From an uncultured delta proteobacterium (GTDB lineage: Bacteria > Desulfobacterota > RBG-13-43-22), in assembly GCA_963790475.1 (NCBI GenBank), contig CAWBOS010000006.1:544001-608000 (forward strand): a stretch of DNA of 64,000 bases. The letters run 5' to 3'. How positions within the stretch are numbered: position 1 is the first letter of the stretch; the number at the start of each line of letters is the position of its first letter. The position numbers were made by a program, and so were the translations under genes. The notes under the pieces are model-generated. The model saw nothing but the letters and a program-made list of their open reading frames with translations. It searched no databases and had not been told where the DNA came from. Below, piece after piece: positions 26,714-32,018 of this stretch.

Positions 26714-27049
26714 CTAAACATGAGCAGCTTTACCCAAAACCTCTTCTGCCCATTGATTAAGACTTTTGCCTGAGGTTTTTGCCATGGCAAGAGCTTTGGC
26801 ATGTGTCTCAGGAGAAACGCGGAGCATCATCTTGCCGGATGCTGCCTTCAAGGGTTTGCGGCCTGTGGCTGCGCAATCTGCGATATAATGATCAATAGCG
26901 GCCTGGAAGTCACCCCGGAGCTTTTTTACGGTTTCTCCCTGGAAGGTTATGTTATCGACAATTCCTATAATTTTTCCGGTAAAGATATTGTCCCTTTGAT
27001 CAAATTCGATTCGTGCCGTATACCCTTTATAGGTCATTATGTTCTTCAT
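26714..27049 (-). CDS. hicB: HicB-family antitoxin
   Basis: MTYKGYTARIEFD...ITFQGETV...SGKMMLRV...SLNQW; GGAGG RBS. Confidence 0.88.
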   Translation of the reverse strand: MKNIMTYKGYTARIEFDQRDNIFTGKIIGIVDNITFQGETVKKLRGDFQAAIDHYIADCAATGRKPLKAASGKMMLRVSPETHAKALAMAKTSGKSLNQWAEEVLGKAAHV

Positions 27050-27093
27050 GGTGTTACCTCCAATTGTCTTAGCCACTCCCGCAGTTCTTCAAT
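27046..27093 (-). pseudogene. hicA: 3' remnant of hicA toxin
   Basis: IEELREWLRQLEVTP* overlaps the hicB ATG (ATGA); the upstream part is absent. Confidence 0.6.
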
Positions 27094-27442
27094 GTCGAAA
27101 AATACAATTCCTCCTCGTGTAGTAACTTAGGAATAGAATTCTACTCAAACTGGATAGAATATTTCGTAATAGCTTAGATAATTAAAACAACTATTTTCAC
27201 CGCTGAGACGCCGAGGGCGCAGAGATGAAATATTTTTTTCCTTTCTGTTGAGAGGCCAGAAAGGAAAAAACTTTCGCTACCCTACGGGTAATGATTTGGC
27301 CGAAGGCCAGAGCTGGTTTAAACAATCCCGCTTCTCACGGGATTGAACAAAAATGATTCTCTCTGCGTCCTTTGCGTCTGGTTTATTGTTGTCAAGAGTT
27401 TTTTAAATATTATTAAACAAACTGGTAACTATCTTAGAGTGA

Positions 27443-27590
27443 CACCTTGCCCAACTCTGGTAATTTGAGAGTCTCAACAGAGCTCTAACCTTGCTTTATT
27501 GGGGTTAAGGTGCAAGCGGAGAGTTATTTAAGCTCTGCGAGAAGGTCGACTTAGTCGCCTTAGATGCCGCAAACGATAATCTCTCCGCTT
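27443..27590 (-). ncRNA. Predicted IS110 bridge RNA (target-binding and donor-binding loops)
   Basis: Two stem/internal-loop/hairpin modules; loop sequences CGGCAUCU/CGCAGAG match the target and AGCAAGGU/ACCAG match the donor. Confidence 0.8.
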
Positions 27591-27605
27591 ACACGCTAAG
27601 AAGGT

Positions 27606-28865
27606 CTAAGCAGCCAGTTTTAACGTTGCTCCTTTTGAATAATTTTCCATATATTCGTTATGATCACGCACCAAGGCAAAAATAACACCGAGAAGCTTCC
27701 GGGCAATGGCTACCAGGGCCTTGATCTTGGGCATTCCTTGATCCAGATGCCTTTGATAGGCCGTATGCATCACTCCCCCTTTTCGAACCGTATTGATAGC
27801 GGCAAAAAAGAGGATTTTCCTAAGAAGCGACCGGCCTCTTTTGGATATATGACGATTCCCTTGGTGCCTTCCAGAACTGATTTCAAAGAGGTTCAGTCCG
27901 GCCAACTTCAGGACTTCAGCCAGCGTATGAAATTTACGAAAATCCCCGACTTCTCCAATCAGTCCGGCGGTGGTAACCTCTCCTATCCCTTTCAAGGACA
28001 GAATCGAATGACTATAGGGGATCTCGGGAAGAAGGGCCGCCATCTCCTGTTCCGCCTTCTCAATAAACTGGTCAGAAGATTCAATCTCAGAAAGAAGTTC
28101 TCGTATCTCAAAAAGAATCGCCTTGCGGCCTTCTTGAAGACCTACGGAATGGCCAGCGGCCGCATAAAGGGCCGGGGCTCGCTCTTTATCCAGCTTCCCT
28201 CGGCTAACCCGTCTCAGCGTGGCCCTCAAGGTCCCAAGACCACATTGGATAATATCTTCCGGGCACGGATAATGCCGCAACAGATATTGGGCACTGCGGG
28301 TTTTAATATTCTTCATCACTTGCAGAAACTCGGGGAAGACAATAAAGACCAAATCCTGAATCTGGTTCAAAAGGCCCGTTCGTCTTCGTATGGCTCTCTC
28401 CCTGGCATGGGTCAGTCGGCGAAGTTCAGCTGCCGCGCCTTCGGGAATGACCACGGTAAGGGCATGACCCAGCTCAATAATATCCGCAATGACTTTGGGA
28501 TCTTTCCTATCCGTCTTATTGGGCGAGTTACCCTGGACTTCCTTCAACTTCTTCGTATGCATAGGATTAACCTGAACCAGTGTCACCGGCCGTTTCATCA
28601 GAAAATGTTGCAAGGGTTCTCCATAAGACCCGGTGGATTCAAAACCAACCACGATTTCTTCCAAGTGATTGGCCTCTTTGGCCTCAACCATCCGATTCCA
28701 AAATTTCGTAAATCCTTGATCATTATTGAAAAACTCAAAAGGTTTGATTTCCGTCCGGTCTGGACAGCGGCCATATCCCATATTGGTCGTTTTGCCTATG
28801 TCCACGGTACCGATAAGGGTTTTTTCATTGACCTTCTTAAGTTTTTTTGTTTCAATCTTATTCAT
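27606..28865 (-). CDS. IS110-family DEDD transposase/recombinase
   Basis: VDIGK, FESTG, KTDRKD (DEDD); GIGEVT; SSG catalytic-Ser motif; ISKRGRSLLR; AAGGAG RBS. Confidence 0.95.
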   Translation of the reverse strand: MNKIETKKLKKVNEKTLIGTVDIGKTTNMGYGRCPDRTEIKPFEFFNNDQGFTKFWNRMVEAKEANHLEEIVVGFESTGSYGEPLQHFLMKRPVTLVQVNPMHTKKLKEVQGNSPNKTDRKDPKVIADIIELGHALTVVIPEGAAAELRRLTHARERAIRRRTGLLNQIQDLVFIVFPEFLQVMKNIKTRSAQYLLRHYPCPEDIIQCGLGTLRATLRRVSRGKLDKERAPALYAAAGHSVGLQEGRKAILFEIRELLSEIESSDQFIEKAEQEMAALLPEIPYSHSILSLKGIGEVTTAGLIGEVGDFRKFHTLAEVLKLAGLNLFEISSGRHQGNRHISKRGRSLLRKILFFAAINTVRKGGVMHTAYQRHLDQGMPKIKALVAIARKLLGVIFALVRDHNEYMENYSKGATLKLAA

Positions 28866-29274
28866 GGCTATACTCCTTTCCTTGGTTTGGGTTTAACCAA
28901 CTTGCAAATTGGACCTCAAATCAAGAAAGAGTATAGCCTTTTTTGTACGGCTTAACTACTTTCTAAAATATAGCAAGCTCTGCGGTGAATAAAATTTTGT
29001 TCCGGCTTGTCCGGGTTAGGGACTGCAAAGATCGTTTCAAAAACGCGTCGGTGTTTTGCCTTCATACCAAGCTCATAGCACTTTAACCTGGTTCGTGCAA
29101 GCAATATTTGATAGCGTAAAGTCCAAACAACCCGATAACGCTATGGAAAAATTATTACTTCAAATACACTAACTTCATGCCTACCAGTGAGAGATGCACA
29201 GCGGTCGTTTTCTTTTTCTCCTTGATCCGTCATTTCCCCTGTTTTATACTCTCTCCAATATCAAAGGAGAGCTT

Positions 29275-32018
29275 ATGACCAATCTTACAAAAAATTCCGA
29301 TACCTATTGGCCTCTCGGGATGCTCCCAGTCCTCGGCTCTACAATCCCCGAGAGCATGCAGGCCTTGACCATTCACCGAGACGAATACGGCCCTCCCAGC
29401 CAGGTGATCCGGATGGAAACAGTCCCCACTCCGCTCCTGAGGGATAACGATAGCGGTCGTGTTCTGGTGGCGATTCTGGCTCCGGACCCAATTACAACAC
29501 CAATTTTGCCGCTCTGGGACTTCCGGTCCCTGTTTTCGGCCGAGGTGATTCGGCTACCATCCATATTCCCGGAAGTGATGCCCTGGGGATCGTGGTTGAT
29601 GCCGGTTCCGCGGTCACCCGGGTCAAAGTCGGACAGGTGGTTATTCTGGACTCCTGGACCGGCCGAAGCATCCGAGGCTATGAAACCCATGACGGGTTTA
29701 ATGCCCAATTCGCCGTAGTCGATGAGGGACGGGCCATACCGGTCCCGGAATCTCTGCAAAGTCATTCTCCCGAGAGCCTGGCCGCCATGCTGCTGACTTA
29801 CGCAACGGCCTATCGGGCCATCGTTGAGCGGCTGAAAGTTCGGCCAGGTGAATCAGTGCTGATTATGGGCGGGGGAAAGGGAACCAGTTTTGCCGGCGCC
29901 CAATTGGCCAAAGCCATAGGGGCCCGGGTGATCCTTATGGGCTCCAATCCGACACTCGTCAACAGCTTGATTTCCCGGGGTCTGGCCGACGCCTTTGTGG
30001 ACCGCCGGGCTTTTGACCCGAATGTTTTTGGGGTCATCGACCAGAACCTTTCCTGGACCCAATGGGAGTCAAAGACCGAATCTTTTCGCCGGGCCGTTCG
30101 GCAAGCCAACAACGGCCACCTGGTGGATAAGGTATTCGAACATACCGGAGGAGCGAATTTCCCTTTGCTCATCTCCGCCCTGGCCCCCGGCGGCACACTG
30201 GCTTTCTTCGGGGCCACAGGCAAGGGGCTGAAAGGCGAGTACAAGGAGACCTTCTTCTATGAAGGCCGCCGTTTCGTCATGGATGCCCGCTGGGTCTGGA
30301 TGCGTCAGAAACAGATCCTTTTCCGCCGAGGGTCGGCCGAGCACATTTTAGAAGCGGCGGGTTTGCTTCCCGGCCGGAAGGTGCTGGTCTGGGGAGCCGA
30401 TCAATACGCCCGGCACTTTATCCGGGCCGCATTGAACCGGTCCGCCCAAGTGGCGGTTATCGCTTCGCAGACCAGGGAGAAAAAGGACATTTCCCGAGTG
30501 ATCCGCATGGGCATCCCTCCCGATCACATCCTCGATCGTGACGTTTTTGTGCTGCCTGCGGACATGCCCGACCCGCTGACCGAAAAAGGAGAACCCAATC
30601 CCGCCTATGGTCCGGAATATATGAGACATGCCCAGGCCCTCGGCAAGGCCCTGTGGACCCTGTTCGGTCCCCGGCAGAGCCCGGACCTGGTTGTGGAAAG
30701 GACCGACCAGAGCACCTTGCACTTCAGTACCTTTGTGGCCCGTGACTTTGATGAGAATGATGTGCAGCAGTGCGGCACTGTGGTGGTCCGGGGCAAATCC
30801 GATCTTACCATCCGCGGATCGCATATGTTTTCTTCCGCGCAGGCGGCCGATGTCGTTCGCCTGCTCGGCAGCGGAACGCTGGAGATGGAACAGGATGATC
30901 TGGAAATAACCGATCTGGCGGGGATTCCCGGCCTGCAACAGAAAATGTTGGACGGGGTTATGAAAAAGCCCAAAGGCGTAGCCCTGGTCCAGGCCGATCG
31001 TCCCGGCCGCACTATCGCCGGCTATGAATCGGCCTTCCGGGGAGAGGAGGTCATGGCGGCCGATCCGGCAGAAGATCGGTTGATCGACGTCCGGTTGATC
31101 AAAGGAGTGGCCGTGGTGACTCTCACCCGGCCTGAAGCGCTGAACGCCTTGAATGCGGCCCTGGTTTCCCAGTTGAGCGATCTGGTCCGAGAGGTCGCGG
31201 AGCATCAGACCATTTCCAACCGACCGGTAAAGGCCCTGGTTATCACCGGGGCCGGGCGGTCCTTTGTCGCCGGGGCCGACGTGAATGCCTTTCGAGGCAG
31301 CCCGGAAATTATCGGGGCCTTTGCCCGTAAAAACATTGCCGTATTTTCGGACCTGGAAAATCTCCCGATTCCGGTGATAGCCCTTGTTGACGGCTTCGGT
31401 CTGGGCGGGGGGAACGAGCTGGCCATGAGCGCCCACTACCGGATCGTTACTGAAAATGCCCGCCTGGGACAGCCGGAGGTCAAGCTGGGCATTATCCCCG
31501 GCTATGGAGGATTACAACGCCTGCCCCGGCTGATCGGCCCGATCAAGGCGGCGCAGATGTGCATCAATGGGGAGCCGATCGACAGCTATGAGGCCCTGGA
31601 AATAGGGTTGGCCGATGAACTCGTCCCCTCGGCAACAGCCCTGCCGCGGGCCATTGCCATAGCCCGGCAGTTCATTGAAGGGCAGCGGCGCATACCGCCC
31701 AAGGATTGGGATATCCGGGGAGAAAAACAAGGCGAAGAGCTTAAGGCCCTTTTATCCCGCCCCGTGGTTCGCGAGTTGATGGCCGCTCCGACGCCCAAGC
31801 AAAGCGAGGCCGGGGATCTGCGTGCTGTTCGTATGGCCTCGGCCCGCGATACTCTGGCGGCCATACAATATGGGTATGAGCACGGGTTCGAAGAGGGGTT
31901 AAGTAACGATGCCATACTCTTCGGCCGGATAGCCGCCTCCCCCGGGGGTCAGGAATGGATCGATCGTTTCCTGGCCAAGGACCCTCTTCAGGGCTCGTTT
32001 CTGACCCTGTTGCCGTGA
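29275..32018 (+). CDS. Enoyl-CoA reductase (Ccr/Pcs-like MDR) - enoyl-CoA hydratase fusion, ~914 aa (frameshift ~29481)
   Basis: Corrected GPNYNTNFA, IRGYETHDG, TAYRA, IRGSHMF; C-terminal crotonase FVAGAD, GGGNELA, GQPEVKLG; AAGGAGA RBS. Confidence 0.8.

What the first reader, a model, noticed from the sequence alone, without database searches (positions are those of the whole stretch)
27378..28979. Complete IS110 with a readable 3' bridge RNA programmed against the host's REP-like palindrome
Seen: the IS interrupts a palindrome at TTTGCGT-CT-CTGCGG, with CT at both junctions. Downstream of the transposase stop, the minus strand folds into two modules. Module 1 (27514-27590, stem AAGCGGAGAG/CUCUCCGCUU) has loop strands CGGCAUCU and CGCAGAG. 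The first is 7/8 identical to the repeat's other arm (CGGCGTCT) but only 5/8 to the occupied site; the second is an exact complement of CTCTGCG. Module 2 (27443-27512) has AGCAAGGU (7/8 to donor AGCAAGCT) and ACCAG (complement of donor CTGGT). Known: IS621-type bridge RNAs use this left/right guide layout around a CT core, and IS621 targets REP sequences. Inferred: this is a separate programmable bridge recombinase. Its RNA lies 3' of the gene, it lacks obvious IS1111-style subterminal IRs, its CT core is on the strand opposite the ORF, and its right target guide is 7 nt.
Basis: partly seen in the sequence, partly recalled or inferred. Interest (0 to 1): 0.88.

Follow-up and report, generated by a model that had tools for sequence, protein, structure and literature searches.

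The report
Bridge-RNA insertion sequence in host repeat
This is an intact, recently active IS110-family jumping gene whose own small RNA, encoded after the transposase gene, reads a short host repeat and steers insertion there; the mechanism is already known, but this is a separate lineage with useful natural variation.

Summary
The finding holds. Window 27380-28977 is a 1598-bp IS110-family element with CT at both junctions. It carries a 419-aa DEDD transposase on the minus strand and a ~157-nt two-module RNA between the stop codon and the element end.

Ten near-identical copies lie in the genome. All sit at TTTGCGT-CT-YTGYG, and 9 of 10 are inside one intergenic repeat family.

In 24 relatives (46-67% identity) the donor ends are constant and the targets differ.
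- RNA stems: 26 of 39 pairs show compensatory changes.
- Target loop: both strands track each element's own flanks.
- Donor loop: one nucleotide tracks the target base next to the core (32 of 35 loci), as IS621 handshake guides do.

- The site is not a palindrome. It is the second/third of three tandem 9-mers beside a hairpin.
- The left guide is UUUGCGGC, not CGGCAUCU. The match to the "other arm" is incidental.
- A 3' RNA and reversed guide order are published for IS1111-type elements.

What is less usual is the mix of a long transposase, no long subterminal repeat and a 3' RNA. I file it as a new member of a known kind, of moderate interest.

The parts
27378..27379 (.). Core dinucleotide CT (AG on the ORF strand), left junction copy
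   Evidence: Present at both junctions of all 10 copies. AG flanks both ends in the relatives.
27380..28977 (-). IS body, 1598 bp, without terminal inverted repeats or target duplication other than the shared core
   Evidence: 10 copies: 9 at 100% and 1 at 99.94% identity. Flanks diverge outside the repeat.
28978..28979 (.). Core dinucleotide CT, right junction copy
27606..28865 (-). Transposase (bridge recombinase), 419 aa. Putative catalytic residues D22, E76, D119, D122 and S331.
   Evidence: Pfam PF01548 (E = 2.5e-24) and PF02371 (E = 5.7e-20). NCBIfam NF033542, 216 bits against a cut-off of 140. The alignment to IS621 chain 8wt6_A covers the E, D..D and SG motifs. The N-terminal D lies outside the aligned stretch and is assigned by motif only.
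27435..27592 (-). Bridge RNA (two stem / internal loop / stem modules), span used in alignment A1
   Evidence: RNAalifold consensus of 24 relatives. 98.4% of cells paired, 26 of 39 pairs with changes on both sides, 0 of 500 shuffles reach this. G-U pairs fit only the ORF strand.
27514..27590 (-). Target-binding loop module (outer stem, internal loop, inner hairpin 27542-27561)
27562..27574 (-). 5' strand of the target loop, GUUUGCGGCAUCU. UUUGCG (27568-27573) has the sense of the window + strand TTTGCG. C27566 pairs with the first core position.
   Evidence: The equivalent loop strand in 18 relatives pairs with their own flank: mean longest run 7.2 against 4.6 for non-cognate pairs, p = 9e-9. 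Table.
27533..27540 (-). 3' strand of the target loop, UCGCAG-AG. It pairs with + strand CT-YTGCG (28978-28984).
   Evidence: The 6 nt before the invariant AG match the cognate flank at 5.2 of 6 on average (n = 20) against 2.8 for non-cognate pairs (n = 420), p = 3e-10.
27531..27532 (-). Target-loop handshake dinucleotide CU, complementary to donor ..AG before the core (28976-28977)
   Evidence: C is invariant in the 24 aligned relatives and the donor end ..CAAG is invariant. The role is inferred by analogy with IS621 (passages of PMC11208158).
27443..27512 (-). Donor-binding loop module
   Evidence: Loop strands are invariant across relatives, as are the element ends.
27490..27496 (-). 5' strand of the donor loop, AAGCAAG. 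AGCAAG pairs with the ORF-strand end CTTGCT (28972-28977).
   Evidence: Read directly from the sequence. Invariant in 24 of 24 relatives. No covariation test is possible because the donor never varies.
27455..27461 (-). 3' strand of the donor loop, ACCAG (= ORF-strand end ACC + core AG), followed by the handshake dinucleotide AG (27455-27456)
   Evidence: The first handshake base equals the ORF-strand base just right of the core in 32 of 35 loci and 19 of 22 distinct elements; 1 of 10000 permutations reaches this.
27390..27395 (-). -35 half (TTGACA) of the promoter that forms only when the ends are joined in a circle
   Evidence: TTGACx, a 17-nt spacer and TAnnnT are present in 20 of 21 distinct joined ends of relatives. 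Inferred; no circle was observed.
28967..28972 (-). -10 half (TATATT) of the junction promoter
28866..28938 (-). 5' UTR hairpin GGCUAUACUC.../...GGAGUAUAGCC that pairs the Shine-Dalgarno sequence next to the start codon
   Evidence: Inverted repeat I20, 13 nt, 92% complementary. Both arms are visible in the printed 5' UTRs of most of the 21 relatives. Not tested statistically.
27323..27377 (+). Host repeat unit, left part: hairpin 27323-27345, A-rich spacer, 9-mers 27360-27368 and 27369-27377
   Evidence: 80 unoccupied units within 3 mismatches of the 19-nt site, plus 10 occupied sites (9 in full repeat units).
28978..28988 (+). Host repeat unit, right part: third 9-mer CTCTGCGGT and GA

Best explanation
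Window 27380-28977 is an intact, recently active IS110-family insertion sequence that moves by bridge-RNA-guided recombination.

The RNA and how it reaches the transposase. The transposase (minus strand, 419 aa) binds a ~157-nt RNA. This RNA is probably cut from, or read as, the 3' end of the transposase's own transcript (27435-27592, minus strand).

Target loop. In the frame where the core reads CT (window + strand):
- The 3' strand CGCAG-AG pairs with the top strand CT-YTGCG.

Donor loop. AGCAAG and ACC-AG hold the joined element ends (..AGCAAG-CT-GGT..) in the same geometry.

Handshake bases. The first dinucleotide 3' of each 3' guide pairs with the other DNA after top-strand exchange:
- CU in the target loop pairs with donor AG.
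- A in the donor loop pairs with target T7.
This biases the reaction toward insertion and makes T at position 7 obligatory.

Life cycle. Joining the ends in a circle assembles a TTGACA / 17 nt / TATATT promoter that drives the transposase and RNA.

Shown here: copy number and site specificity, RNA structure, and guide-target and handshake covariation.

Inferred: transcription and processing of the RNA, the circular intermediate, and the chemistry, the last by homology with IS621.
For: - Domains: PF01548 and PF02371, plus NF033542 'IS110 family RNA-guided transposase'.
- Catalytic residues: the E, D..D and SG motifs align with IS621.
- Insertion sites: 10 of 10 copies lie at YTTTGCGT/CTCTGCGT-CT-YYGYG. 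One (C6:14567) lacks the rest of the repeat, so only about 15 bp is read.
- Relatives: donor ends are conserved and targets differ.
- RNA structure: 98.4% of cells paired, 26 of 39 pairs compensatory, 0 of 500 shuffles; sliding the partners drops pairing to 35-49%.
- Guide against cognate flank versus non-cognate flank: p = 3e-10 and 9e-9.
- Handshake base equals the target base in 32 of 35 loci, with 1 of 10000 permutations reaching this.
- Own genome: the base before the core is T in 10 of 10 occupied sites but in only 20 of 80 empty sites (Fisher p = 5e-6).
- Among sites otherwise identical: T in 6 of 6 occupied against 2 of 38 empty (p = 4e-6).
- Site variants at guide positions are G-U-compatible: Y at position 10, TTGTG, CTGTG.
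- A junction promoter is present in 20 of 21 distinct relatives.
Against: - No direct evidence of the RNA. The two RNA-library runs hold only contigs 85-99% like the region, from relatives, and cannot show transcription.
- No promoter-like or terminator-like site on the minus strand inside the element.
- Donor-loop pairing is short (6 and 5 nt) and cannot be tested by covariation because the donor never varies.
- In the contiguous register the left guide carries a G opposite A at position 7 in all 10 sites. It would fit the 21 unoccupied G-variant sites better. I explain this by the handshake, but a bulged pairing is equally possible.
- The register of the 5' loop strand relative to the core shifts by 1-2 nt among relatives (L042, L046, L051, L060, L062).
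- Three loci break the handshake rule: L046, L048 and L071.
- Relatives are phylogenetically related, so the p-values overstate independence.
Confidence: 0.9

Rival explanations
1. The obligatory T before the core is read by the left guide through a bulged pairing, not by the donor-loop handshake base. UUUGCG and UCU would pair with TTTGCG-TCT while GCA loops out. The reader's loop string ended in this same UCU.
For: UUUGCG[GCA]UCU matches TTTGCGTCT 9 of 9 once 3 nt are skipped. L049 shows a similar split, AGCU[ACA]UCAU against AGCT-TCAT. Discontiguous guide pairing is reported for the IS621 right donor guide (passage of PMC11208160). This also explains why G-variant sites are empty.
Against: Most relatives pair contiguously and lack a terminal CU after the guide. 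Their loops end AUU, AUA or UUU. The handshake rule holds in 32 of 35 loci across A, G and U types, which the bulge model does not predict. The two models are not mutually exclusive.
Confidence: 0.3
2. The element is an ordinary member of the IS1111 group, so nothing about its layout is unusual.
For: The RNA lies downstream of the gene, and the top-strand-pairing guide lies 5' of the bottom-strand guide. Both are described for IS1111-type seekRNAs (sections 9 and 12 of PMC11187229; passages of PMC11208160).
Against: - The transposase is 419 aa, against 330-350 aa given for IS1111 transposases (section 6 of PMC11187229).
- The longest exact inverted match between the first and last 60 nt is 5 nt, at unequal distances from the tips. 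None of the 25 longest of 151 inverted pairs joins the two ends.
- tblastn gives full-length matches (92-95% coverage) to long IS110-family proteins. Two of these have their longer non-coding gap upstream.
- Several 322-aa-class enterobacterial proteins match over only 29-35% of the query, at the C-terminus.
- No tree with labelled references was built.
Confidence: 0.15
3. One reading: the left guide is CGGCAUCU and is programmed for the other arm of the repeat (CGGCGTCT), so the occupied sites are second-best targets.
For: CGGCAUCU matches CGGCGTCT 7 of 8. That neighbouring unit exists at about 27197-27215 with T before CT.
Against: In relatives, the flank-tracking nucleotides are the ~8 nt that follow GAUUAUC, not the last 8 nt of the loop. 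The other-arm site (CTCGGCG-T-CT-CAGCG) is empty and also mismatches the 3' guide. All 10 insertions are at TTTGCGT/TCTGCGT sites.
Confidence: 0.03
4. The 3' structure is only an mRNA 3'-end or stability element, and the protein alone recognises the target.
For: No RNA data. No independent promoter was found.
Against: Loop nucleotides change together with the flanks while the stems are kept. This is not expected of a stability element. The family is named RNA-guided in NCBIfam.
Confidence: 0.02

Closest known systems
IS621 and the IS110-group bridge RNA system (Durrant 2024, PMC11208160; Hiraizumi 2024, PMC11208158; PMC13626964)
   Same: - DEDD plus Tnp domain recombinase.
- One RNA with a target loop and a donor loop.
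- In the CT frame, the 5' loop strand pairs with the bottom strand (8 nt here; 8-9 in IS621) and the 3' strand pairs with the top strand including the core (7 nt here; 4-7 in IS621).
- Handshake bases lie 3' of the right guides.
- By my reading of the sequence, there are 0-1 handshake pairs before exchange and 3 after. quotes the IS621 pattern as one before and three after.
- Promoter formed at the circle junction.
- A repeated extragenic host element as target.
- ATA...TAT flanking the donor site.
   Different: - The RNA lies downstream of the gene.
- RNA and gene are transcribed from the strand on which the core reads AG.
- The transposase is 419 aa against 328, with only E = 4e-8 similarity, limited to parts of both domains.
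- The left guide pairs with only the first core base in most relatives.
- Rfam release 15 has no matching family.
IS1111-type seekRNA elements (ISEc11, ISKpn4, ISPa11; Siddiquee 2024, PMC11187229)
   Same: A downstream non-coding region encodes the guide RNA. The top-strand match is 5' of the bottom-strand match. A junction promoter forms. Each lineage has its own target.
   Different: No 7-17-bp subterminal inverted repeats. The transposase is about 80 aa longer. That paper mentions IS110-type elements with a downstream non-coding region only as exceptions. I could not see its figures or supplements to learn whether this clade is among them.
ISPpu9/ISPpu10 of Pseudomonas putida (PMC12288879, passages)
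   Same: IS110-family elements inserted at one position of a REP family, often in inverted REP pairs, with AG at both boundaries on the gene strand.
   Different: ISPpu9 is assigned to the IS110 group. Its downstream sRNA Ssr9 is dispensable and mobile on its own, and no junction promoter forms. Here the RNA model finds no orphan copies: all 10 matches lie inside IS copies.

Membership tests
IS110 family (bridge/seek RNA-guided DEDD transposons, broad sense) | N-terminal DEDD RuvC-like domain plus C-terminal Transposase_20 domain with the SG serine | tested here: met
   PF01548 at residues 21-178 and PF02371 at 287-371. NF033542 scores 216 bits against a cut-off of 140. E76, D119, D122 and S331-G332 align with IS621. 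D22 is assigned by motif only.
IS110 family (bridge/seek RNA-guided DEDD transposons, broad sense) | Site-specific insertion without terminal inverted repeats or target duplication; a core dinucleotide is shared by donor and target | tested here: met
   10 of 10 copies are at one sequence with CT on both sides. Empty sites carry a single CT.
IS110 family (bridge/seek RNA-guided DEDD transposons, broad sense) | Non-coding RNA with two internal loops whose strands pair with both strands of target and donor | tested here: met
   Structure covariation. Target-loop covariation. Donor loop complementary to invariant ends; covariation cannot be tested for the donor.
IS110 family (bridge/seek RNA-guided DEDD transposons, broad sense) | Circular intermediate with a junction promoter; RNA bound by the transposase | not testable with these tools
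   Only the promoter halves are seen: TTGACA, 17 nt, TATATT, in 20 of 21 distinct relatives.
IS110 group (IS621-like) | Bridge RNA in the left end, upstream of the gene | tested here: not met
   The upstream non-coding region is 112 bp and holds only a Shine-Dalgarno hairpin. The RNA lies in the 226-bp downstream region.
IS110 group (IS621-like) | Handshake guide covariation between each loop and the non-cognate DNA | tested here: met
   Donor-loop base against target position 7: 32 of 35 loci. The target-loop C and the donor G are both invariant.
IS110 group (IS621-like) | Short 2-3-bp subterminal inverted repeat (ATA...TAT) flanking the donor site | tested here: inconclusive
   ATA and TAT are present in this element and most relatives. 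Some relatives have ACA with TAT (listing). No statistical test was made.
IS1111 group | Subterminal inverted repeats of 7-17 bp | tested here: not met
   The longest exact inverted match between the terminal 60-nt stretches is 5 nt, at unequal distances. None of the 25 longest inverted pairs joins the two ends (126 shorter pairs were not shown).
IS1111 group | Longer non-coding region and guide RNA downstream of the gene; top-strand guide 5' of bottom-strand guide | tested here: met
   compared with sections 9 and 12 of PMC11187229.
IS1111 group | Transposase of 330-350 aa that clusters with IS1111 in phylogeny | tested here: inconclusive
   The length is 419 aa, outside that range. No tree with labelled references was built. 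The tblastn coverage pattern points toward long IS110-type proteins.

The most novel reading that the evidence does not exclude
This element and its roughly 25 relatives (in Nitrospirota, Desulfobacterota and others) form an uncharacterised lineage of bridge recombinases.

Its features are a long IS110-type transposase with a 3' bridge RNA read from the strand opposite the CT core, a fixed donor site and a fixed 157-nt scaffold. The target loop has been naturally reprogrammed at least 22 times, mostly onto tandem 8-9-nt host repeats.

In this lineage the handshake base, not left-guide complementarity, decides which repeat variant is used. The 21 sites that fit the left guide perfectly stay empty, while the sites that fit the handshake are filled.
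Probability: 0.35. Interest if true: 0.6.

Novelty: new member of a known kind. Interest (0 to 1): 0.45.

Why it matters
Bridge recombinases are being developed as programmable tools for inserting, excising and inverting DNA. Most mechanistic knowledge comes from IS621 and a few relatives.

This lineage offers a natural series for study: one scaffold and one donor, at least 22 different target loops, and their real insertion sites. It also offers an in-genome competition experiment, with 90 candidate sites of which 10 are filled. That experiment points to the handshake position as a specificity determinant.

The lineage extends the IS621 rules (guide geometry, handshake, junction promoter) to a long-transposase group with a 3' RNA.

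For genome annotation, it explains 10 identical insertions and flags a family of about 90 intergenic repeats as their landing pads.

Tried and rejected
Rfam. I scanned 27000-29400 at E up to 10. It returned five weak matches, all far below their gathering scores. None was a bridge RNA family. A hairpin hit at 28859-28944 is the 5' UTR stem.

Expression. One search for RNA runs found two metatranscriptome runs that hold 9% and 5% of the sampled words. The laid contigs, 85-99% alike, cover 27300-27596 and short ends. They come from relatives and cannot show transcription, 5' or 3' ends, or strand. I draw no conclusion from them.

Promoters and terminators. The scan found 2 promoter-like sites, both on the + strand, against 2.2 expected, and no terminator. 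This was uninformative.

Covariance model R1. It found no orphan RNA genes in the own genome; all 10 hits lie inside IS copies. It found nothing in four more distant IS110-family loci: best score 6.0 bits, E = 1.6. The scaffold is therefore confined to the 46-67% identity clade as far as tested.

Group assignment. I considered a tree against labelled IS110 and IS1111 references. I dropped it because no labelled reference sequences could be fetched. PDB hits give no protein ids, and the plasmid annotation mostly says only 'IS110 family transposase'.

Supplements. Supplementary tables of PMC11208160 and PMC11187229 list RNA position per ISfinder entry and could show whether this clade is already catalogued.

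Rows dropped before counts:
- L033 and L053: contig ends inside the RNA.
- L034: my pattern failed on its variant stem. By eye it fits.
- L055, L072 and L073: no intact ORF or no ends.
- L070: the same loops as L032, counted once.
- Loci without a left or right flank were left out of the respective test.

Errors of mine:
- The first pattern for the right end and the first pattern for the loop were too strict. I relaxed them.
The count is 6 of 10 and the test was redone.
Full report
What is there

The sequence and ORF list show a 419-aa ORF on the minus strand, 27606-28865. It carries the two domains of IS110-family transposases: PF01548 at residues 21-178 (E = 2.5e-24) and PF02371 at 287-371 (E = 5.7e-20). 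It also reaches NCBIfam NF033542 'IS110 family RNA-guided transposase', with 216 bits against a cut-off of 140.

The only solved relatives are IS621 (E = 4e-8) and ISCro4 (E = 1e-5). The alignment covers the E, D..D and SG catalytic motifs, which here are E76, D119, D122 and S331-G332. D22 in VDIGK is assigned by motif only.

Boundaries and copies

A search of the window's own genome (6.34 Mb, 20 contigs) finds 10 copies of 27380-28977. Nine are 100% identical and one is 99.94% identical over 1598 bp.

All ten have CT immediately outside both ends. All ten have the same short flanks and unrelated sequence further out. The element is therefore 1598 bp plus one shared core dinucleotide. It has no terminal inverted repeats and no other duplication, and it has spread recently.

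On the window + strand the sites read as follows:
- Left of the core: CTTTGCGT in 9 copies and CTCTGCGT in 1.
- Core: CT.
- Right of the core: TTGCGG (4), CTGCGG (3), TTGTGG (1), CCGCGG (1) and CTGTGT (1).

The target

Nine of the ten sites lie in a repeat family. Each unit has a hairpin with one of several stem sequences, then an A-rich spacer, then three tandem 9-mers and TGA. The IS sits at the boundary of the second and third 9-mers.

Eighty unoccupied units lie within 3 mismatches of the 19-nt site.

The tenth copy (C6:14567) has only the ~15-bp site and no hairpin. What is recognised is therefore the short sequence, not the repeat's structure.

The site itself is a direct repeat, not a palindrome. 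Its site, CTCGGCG-T-CT-CAGCG, is empty.

The RNA

The 226 nt between the stop codon and the element end fold significantly better than shuffles: -70.3 kcal/mol, z = -3.88, 0 of 200.

A scan of one genome per species returned 43 loci encoding relatives of the transposase. Forty-two of them share 46-67% identity with it. They come from Nitrospirota, Desulfobacterota and other phyla, and several genomes hold 2-7 copies.

Their ends are nearly constant. On the gene strand they read AG-CTTGCTAT... and ...TTGACnnnAATAAACC-AG. The flanks differ from element to element.

An alignment of the 3' region of 24 distinct relatives gives a consensus of two modules, each a stem, an internal loop and a stem. 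The test of that structure gave:
- 98.4% of 927 cells paired.
- 26 of 39 pairs with changes on both sides.
- 0 of 500 column shuffles reaching the observed values.
- 35-49% pairing when the partners are slid by 1-3 columns.

Frequent G-U pairs fit only the gene strand.

Rfam release 15 has no matching family.

Guides

In every relative the first internal loop has the form GAUUAUC-[variable ~8 nt + 3-5 nt]-inner hairpin-C-[variable 5-6 nt]-AG-C.

The 3' strand. The 6 nt before the invariant AG have the sense of the gene-strand left flank. Cognate pairs match at 5.2 of 6 on average (n = 20). Non-cognate pairs match at 2.8 (n = 420). Mann-Whitney p = 3e-10.

The 5' strand. It is complementary to the gene-strand right flank. 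The mean longest paired run is 7.2 for cognate pairs (n = 18) and 4.6 for non-cognate pairs (n = 378), p = 9e-9.

For this element the strands are UCGCAG-AG (27533-27540) and UUUGCGGC (27566-27573). The variation seen among its own ten sites at guide positions is G-U compatible, with one exception (CCGCG).

The comparative data place the guide 4 nt further 5', and there it matches the occupied site at 7 of 8. The register between guide and core shifts by 1-2 nt in some relatives: L042, L046, L051, L060 and L062.

Donor loop

The second loop carries AAGCAAG (27490-27496) and ACCAG (27457-27461). Both are invariant in all 24 relatives. AGCAAG is complementary to the element end CTTGCT, and ACCAG has the same sense as the other element end ACC plus the core AG. 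Because the donor never varies, this assignment rests on complementarity, position and analogy.

Handshake

In IS621, the two bases 3' of the right guides pair with the other DNA after top-strand exchange, and this sets the direction of the reaction (passages of PMC11208158, and of PMC13626964).

Here the base after ACCAG equals the gene-strand base just right of the core in 32 of 35 loci:
- G-G in 18 loci.
- A-A in 9 loci.
- T-T in 5 loci.
- Exceptions: L046, L048 and L071.

At the level of distinct elements it holds in 19 of 22, and 1 of 10000 permutations reaches this.

The C after the target-loop AG is invariant, as is the donor G that it would pair with.

By my reading of the sequence, this element has 0-1 handshake pairs before exchange and 3 after. 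This is close to the pattern quoted for wild-type IS621, one pair before and three after.

A natural competition experiment

Among the 80 empty sites, the base before the core is G in 28, C in 21, T in 20 and A in 11. All 10 occupied sites have T (Fisher p = 5e-6).

Restricting to sites that are otherwise TTTGCG-N-CT-YTGCGG:
- Occupied: 6 of 6 have T.
- Empty: 2 T, 21 G, 10 C and 5 A (p = 4e-6).

The left guide read contiguously (UUUGCGGC) fits the G sites perfectly, yet none of them is used. T is exactly what the donor-loop handshake A requires.

A bulged pairing, UUUGCG[GCA]UCU, would also demand T. I cannot separate the two explanations from sequence alone.

Other anatomy

Joining the ends places TTGACA, a 17-nt spacer and TATATT together. 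The same arrangement is present in 20 of 21 distinct relatives. This is the junction promoter described for the family (passages of PMC12288879, and section 12 of PMC11187229).

The 112-nt 5' UTR holds a hairpin that pairs the Shine-Dalgarno sequence (I20). Its arms recur in the relatives.

No subterminal inverted repeat exists. The longest exact inverted match between the terminal 60-nt stretches is 5 nt, and none of the 25 longest inverted pairs links the ends.

Model R1, built from the alignment, finds only the 10 IS-borne copies in the genome.

Comparison with what is known

Bridge or seek RNAs of the IS110 family are established. I read passages of PMC11208160 and sections 6, 9, 12 and 13 of PMC11187229.

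Viewed with the core as CT, this element has the IS621 geometry: 5' strand to the bottom strand, 3' strand to the top strand including the core, and handshake bases 3' of the right guides.

Viewed along the gene, it has the IS1111-type layout: the RNA downstream and the top-strand guide first.

It fails two IS1111 criteria, the 7-17-bp subterminal repeats and the 330-350-aa transposase length.

Its best matches among 72,556 plasmids are long IS110-family proteins. The top hit has 35.6% identity and others have about 27% over 92-95% of the length. Two of them have the longer non-coding gap upstream.

Several 322-aa-class enterobacterial proteins match only the C-terminal third.

Siddiquee et al. 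note that some IS110-type elements have a downstream non-coding region (section 6). I could not see their figures or supplements to learn whether this clade is among them, and I built no labelled tree. The subgroup is therefore unresolved.

Searches for later surveys found nothing that describes this clade: 'bridge RNA' + IS1111 + IS110, seekRNA, and 'bridge recombinase' + IS1111 + downstream from 2025. That is weak evidence that it is not in print.

Verdict

This is a real and well-supported bridge-RNA insertion sequence. It is a new member of a known kind, possibly a distinct sublineage. Its value lies in the natural reprogramming series and the site-choice data rather than in a new mechanism.

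Noticed in passing
window 27197-27285, 27305-27379 and 28978-28988; G000 genome-wide: An intergenic repeat family with about 90 units. Each unit is a hairpin with at least three different stem sequences, an A-rich spacer and three tandem 9-mers (YCTYTGCGN) ending in TGA. Here two units face each other. Its function is unknown, and Rfam gave no match in the scanned stretch.
   Followed up: partly
L041, L050-L052, L057, L060-L069, L071, L032/L070 (flanks listed): Relatives also land in short tandem repeats. Examples are (CGCGAAGG)n-like, (CACGAAGA)n-like and (AGGGTTC)n repeats, and GGTTAGGG. The two halves of each target resemble one another, so the two guide strands of a target loop are partly complementary to each other. 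They pair with each other in the single-sequence fold.
   Followed up: no
window 28866-28938 (minus strand); relatives: A conserved 5' UTR hairpin pairs GGAG and the bases up to the start codon. It is probably a translational block on the transposase. Some relatives use GTG or TTG directly after the same stem.
   Followed up: partly
L042-L045 (3' non-coding region 503 nt), L058-L062 (about 320 nt), L032/L034 (345-368 nt): In several relatives 100-300 nt of extra sequence lies between the bridge RNA and the right end. In L058-L062 it includes a long GC-rich hairpin. It may be passenger or regulatory sequence; I did not examine it.
   Followed up: no
L046, L047, L048: Copies of one element sit at sites that differ by a 2-nt offset right of the core (AG-GGTCTGTGA against AG-TCTGTGA). 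Only L047 fits the handshake base. L046 and L048 share 1.8 kb of upstream flank and may be one duplicated locus.
   Followed up: no
window 27300-27596, runs X1 and X2: Soil and ice metatranscriptome assemblies contain contigs 85-99% like the repeat, right end and bridge-RNA part of the element. This indicates that close relatives occur in those samples. It is not evidence of transcription.
   Followed up: partly
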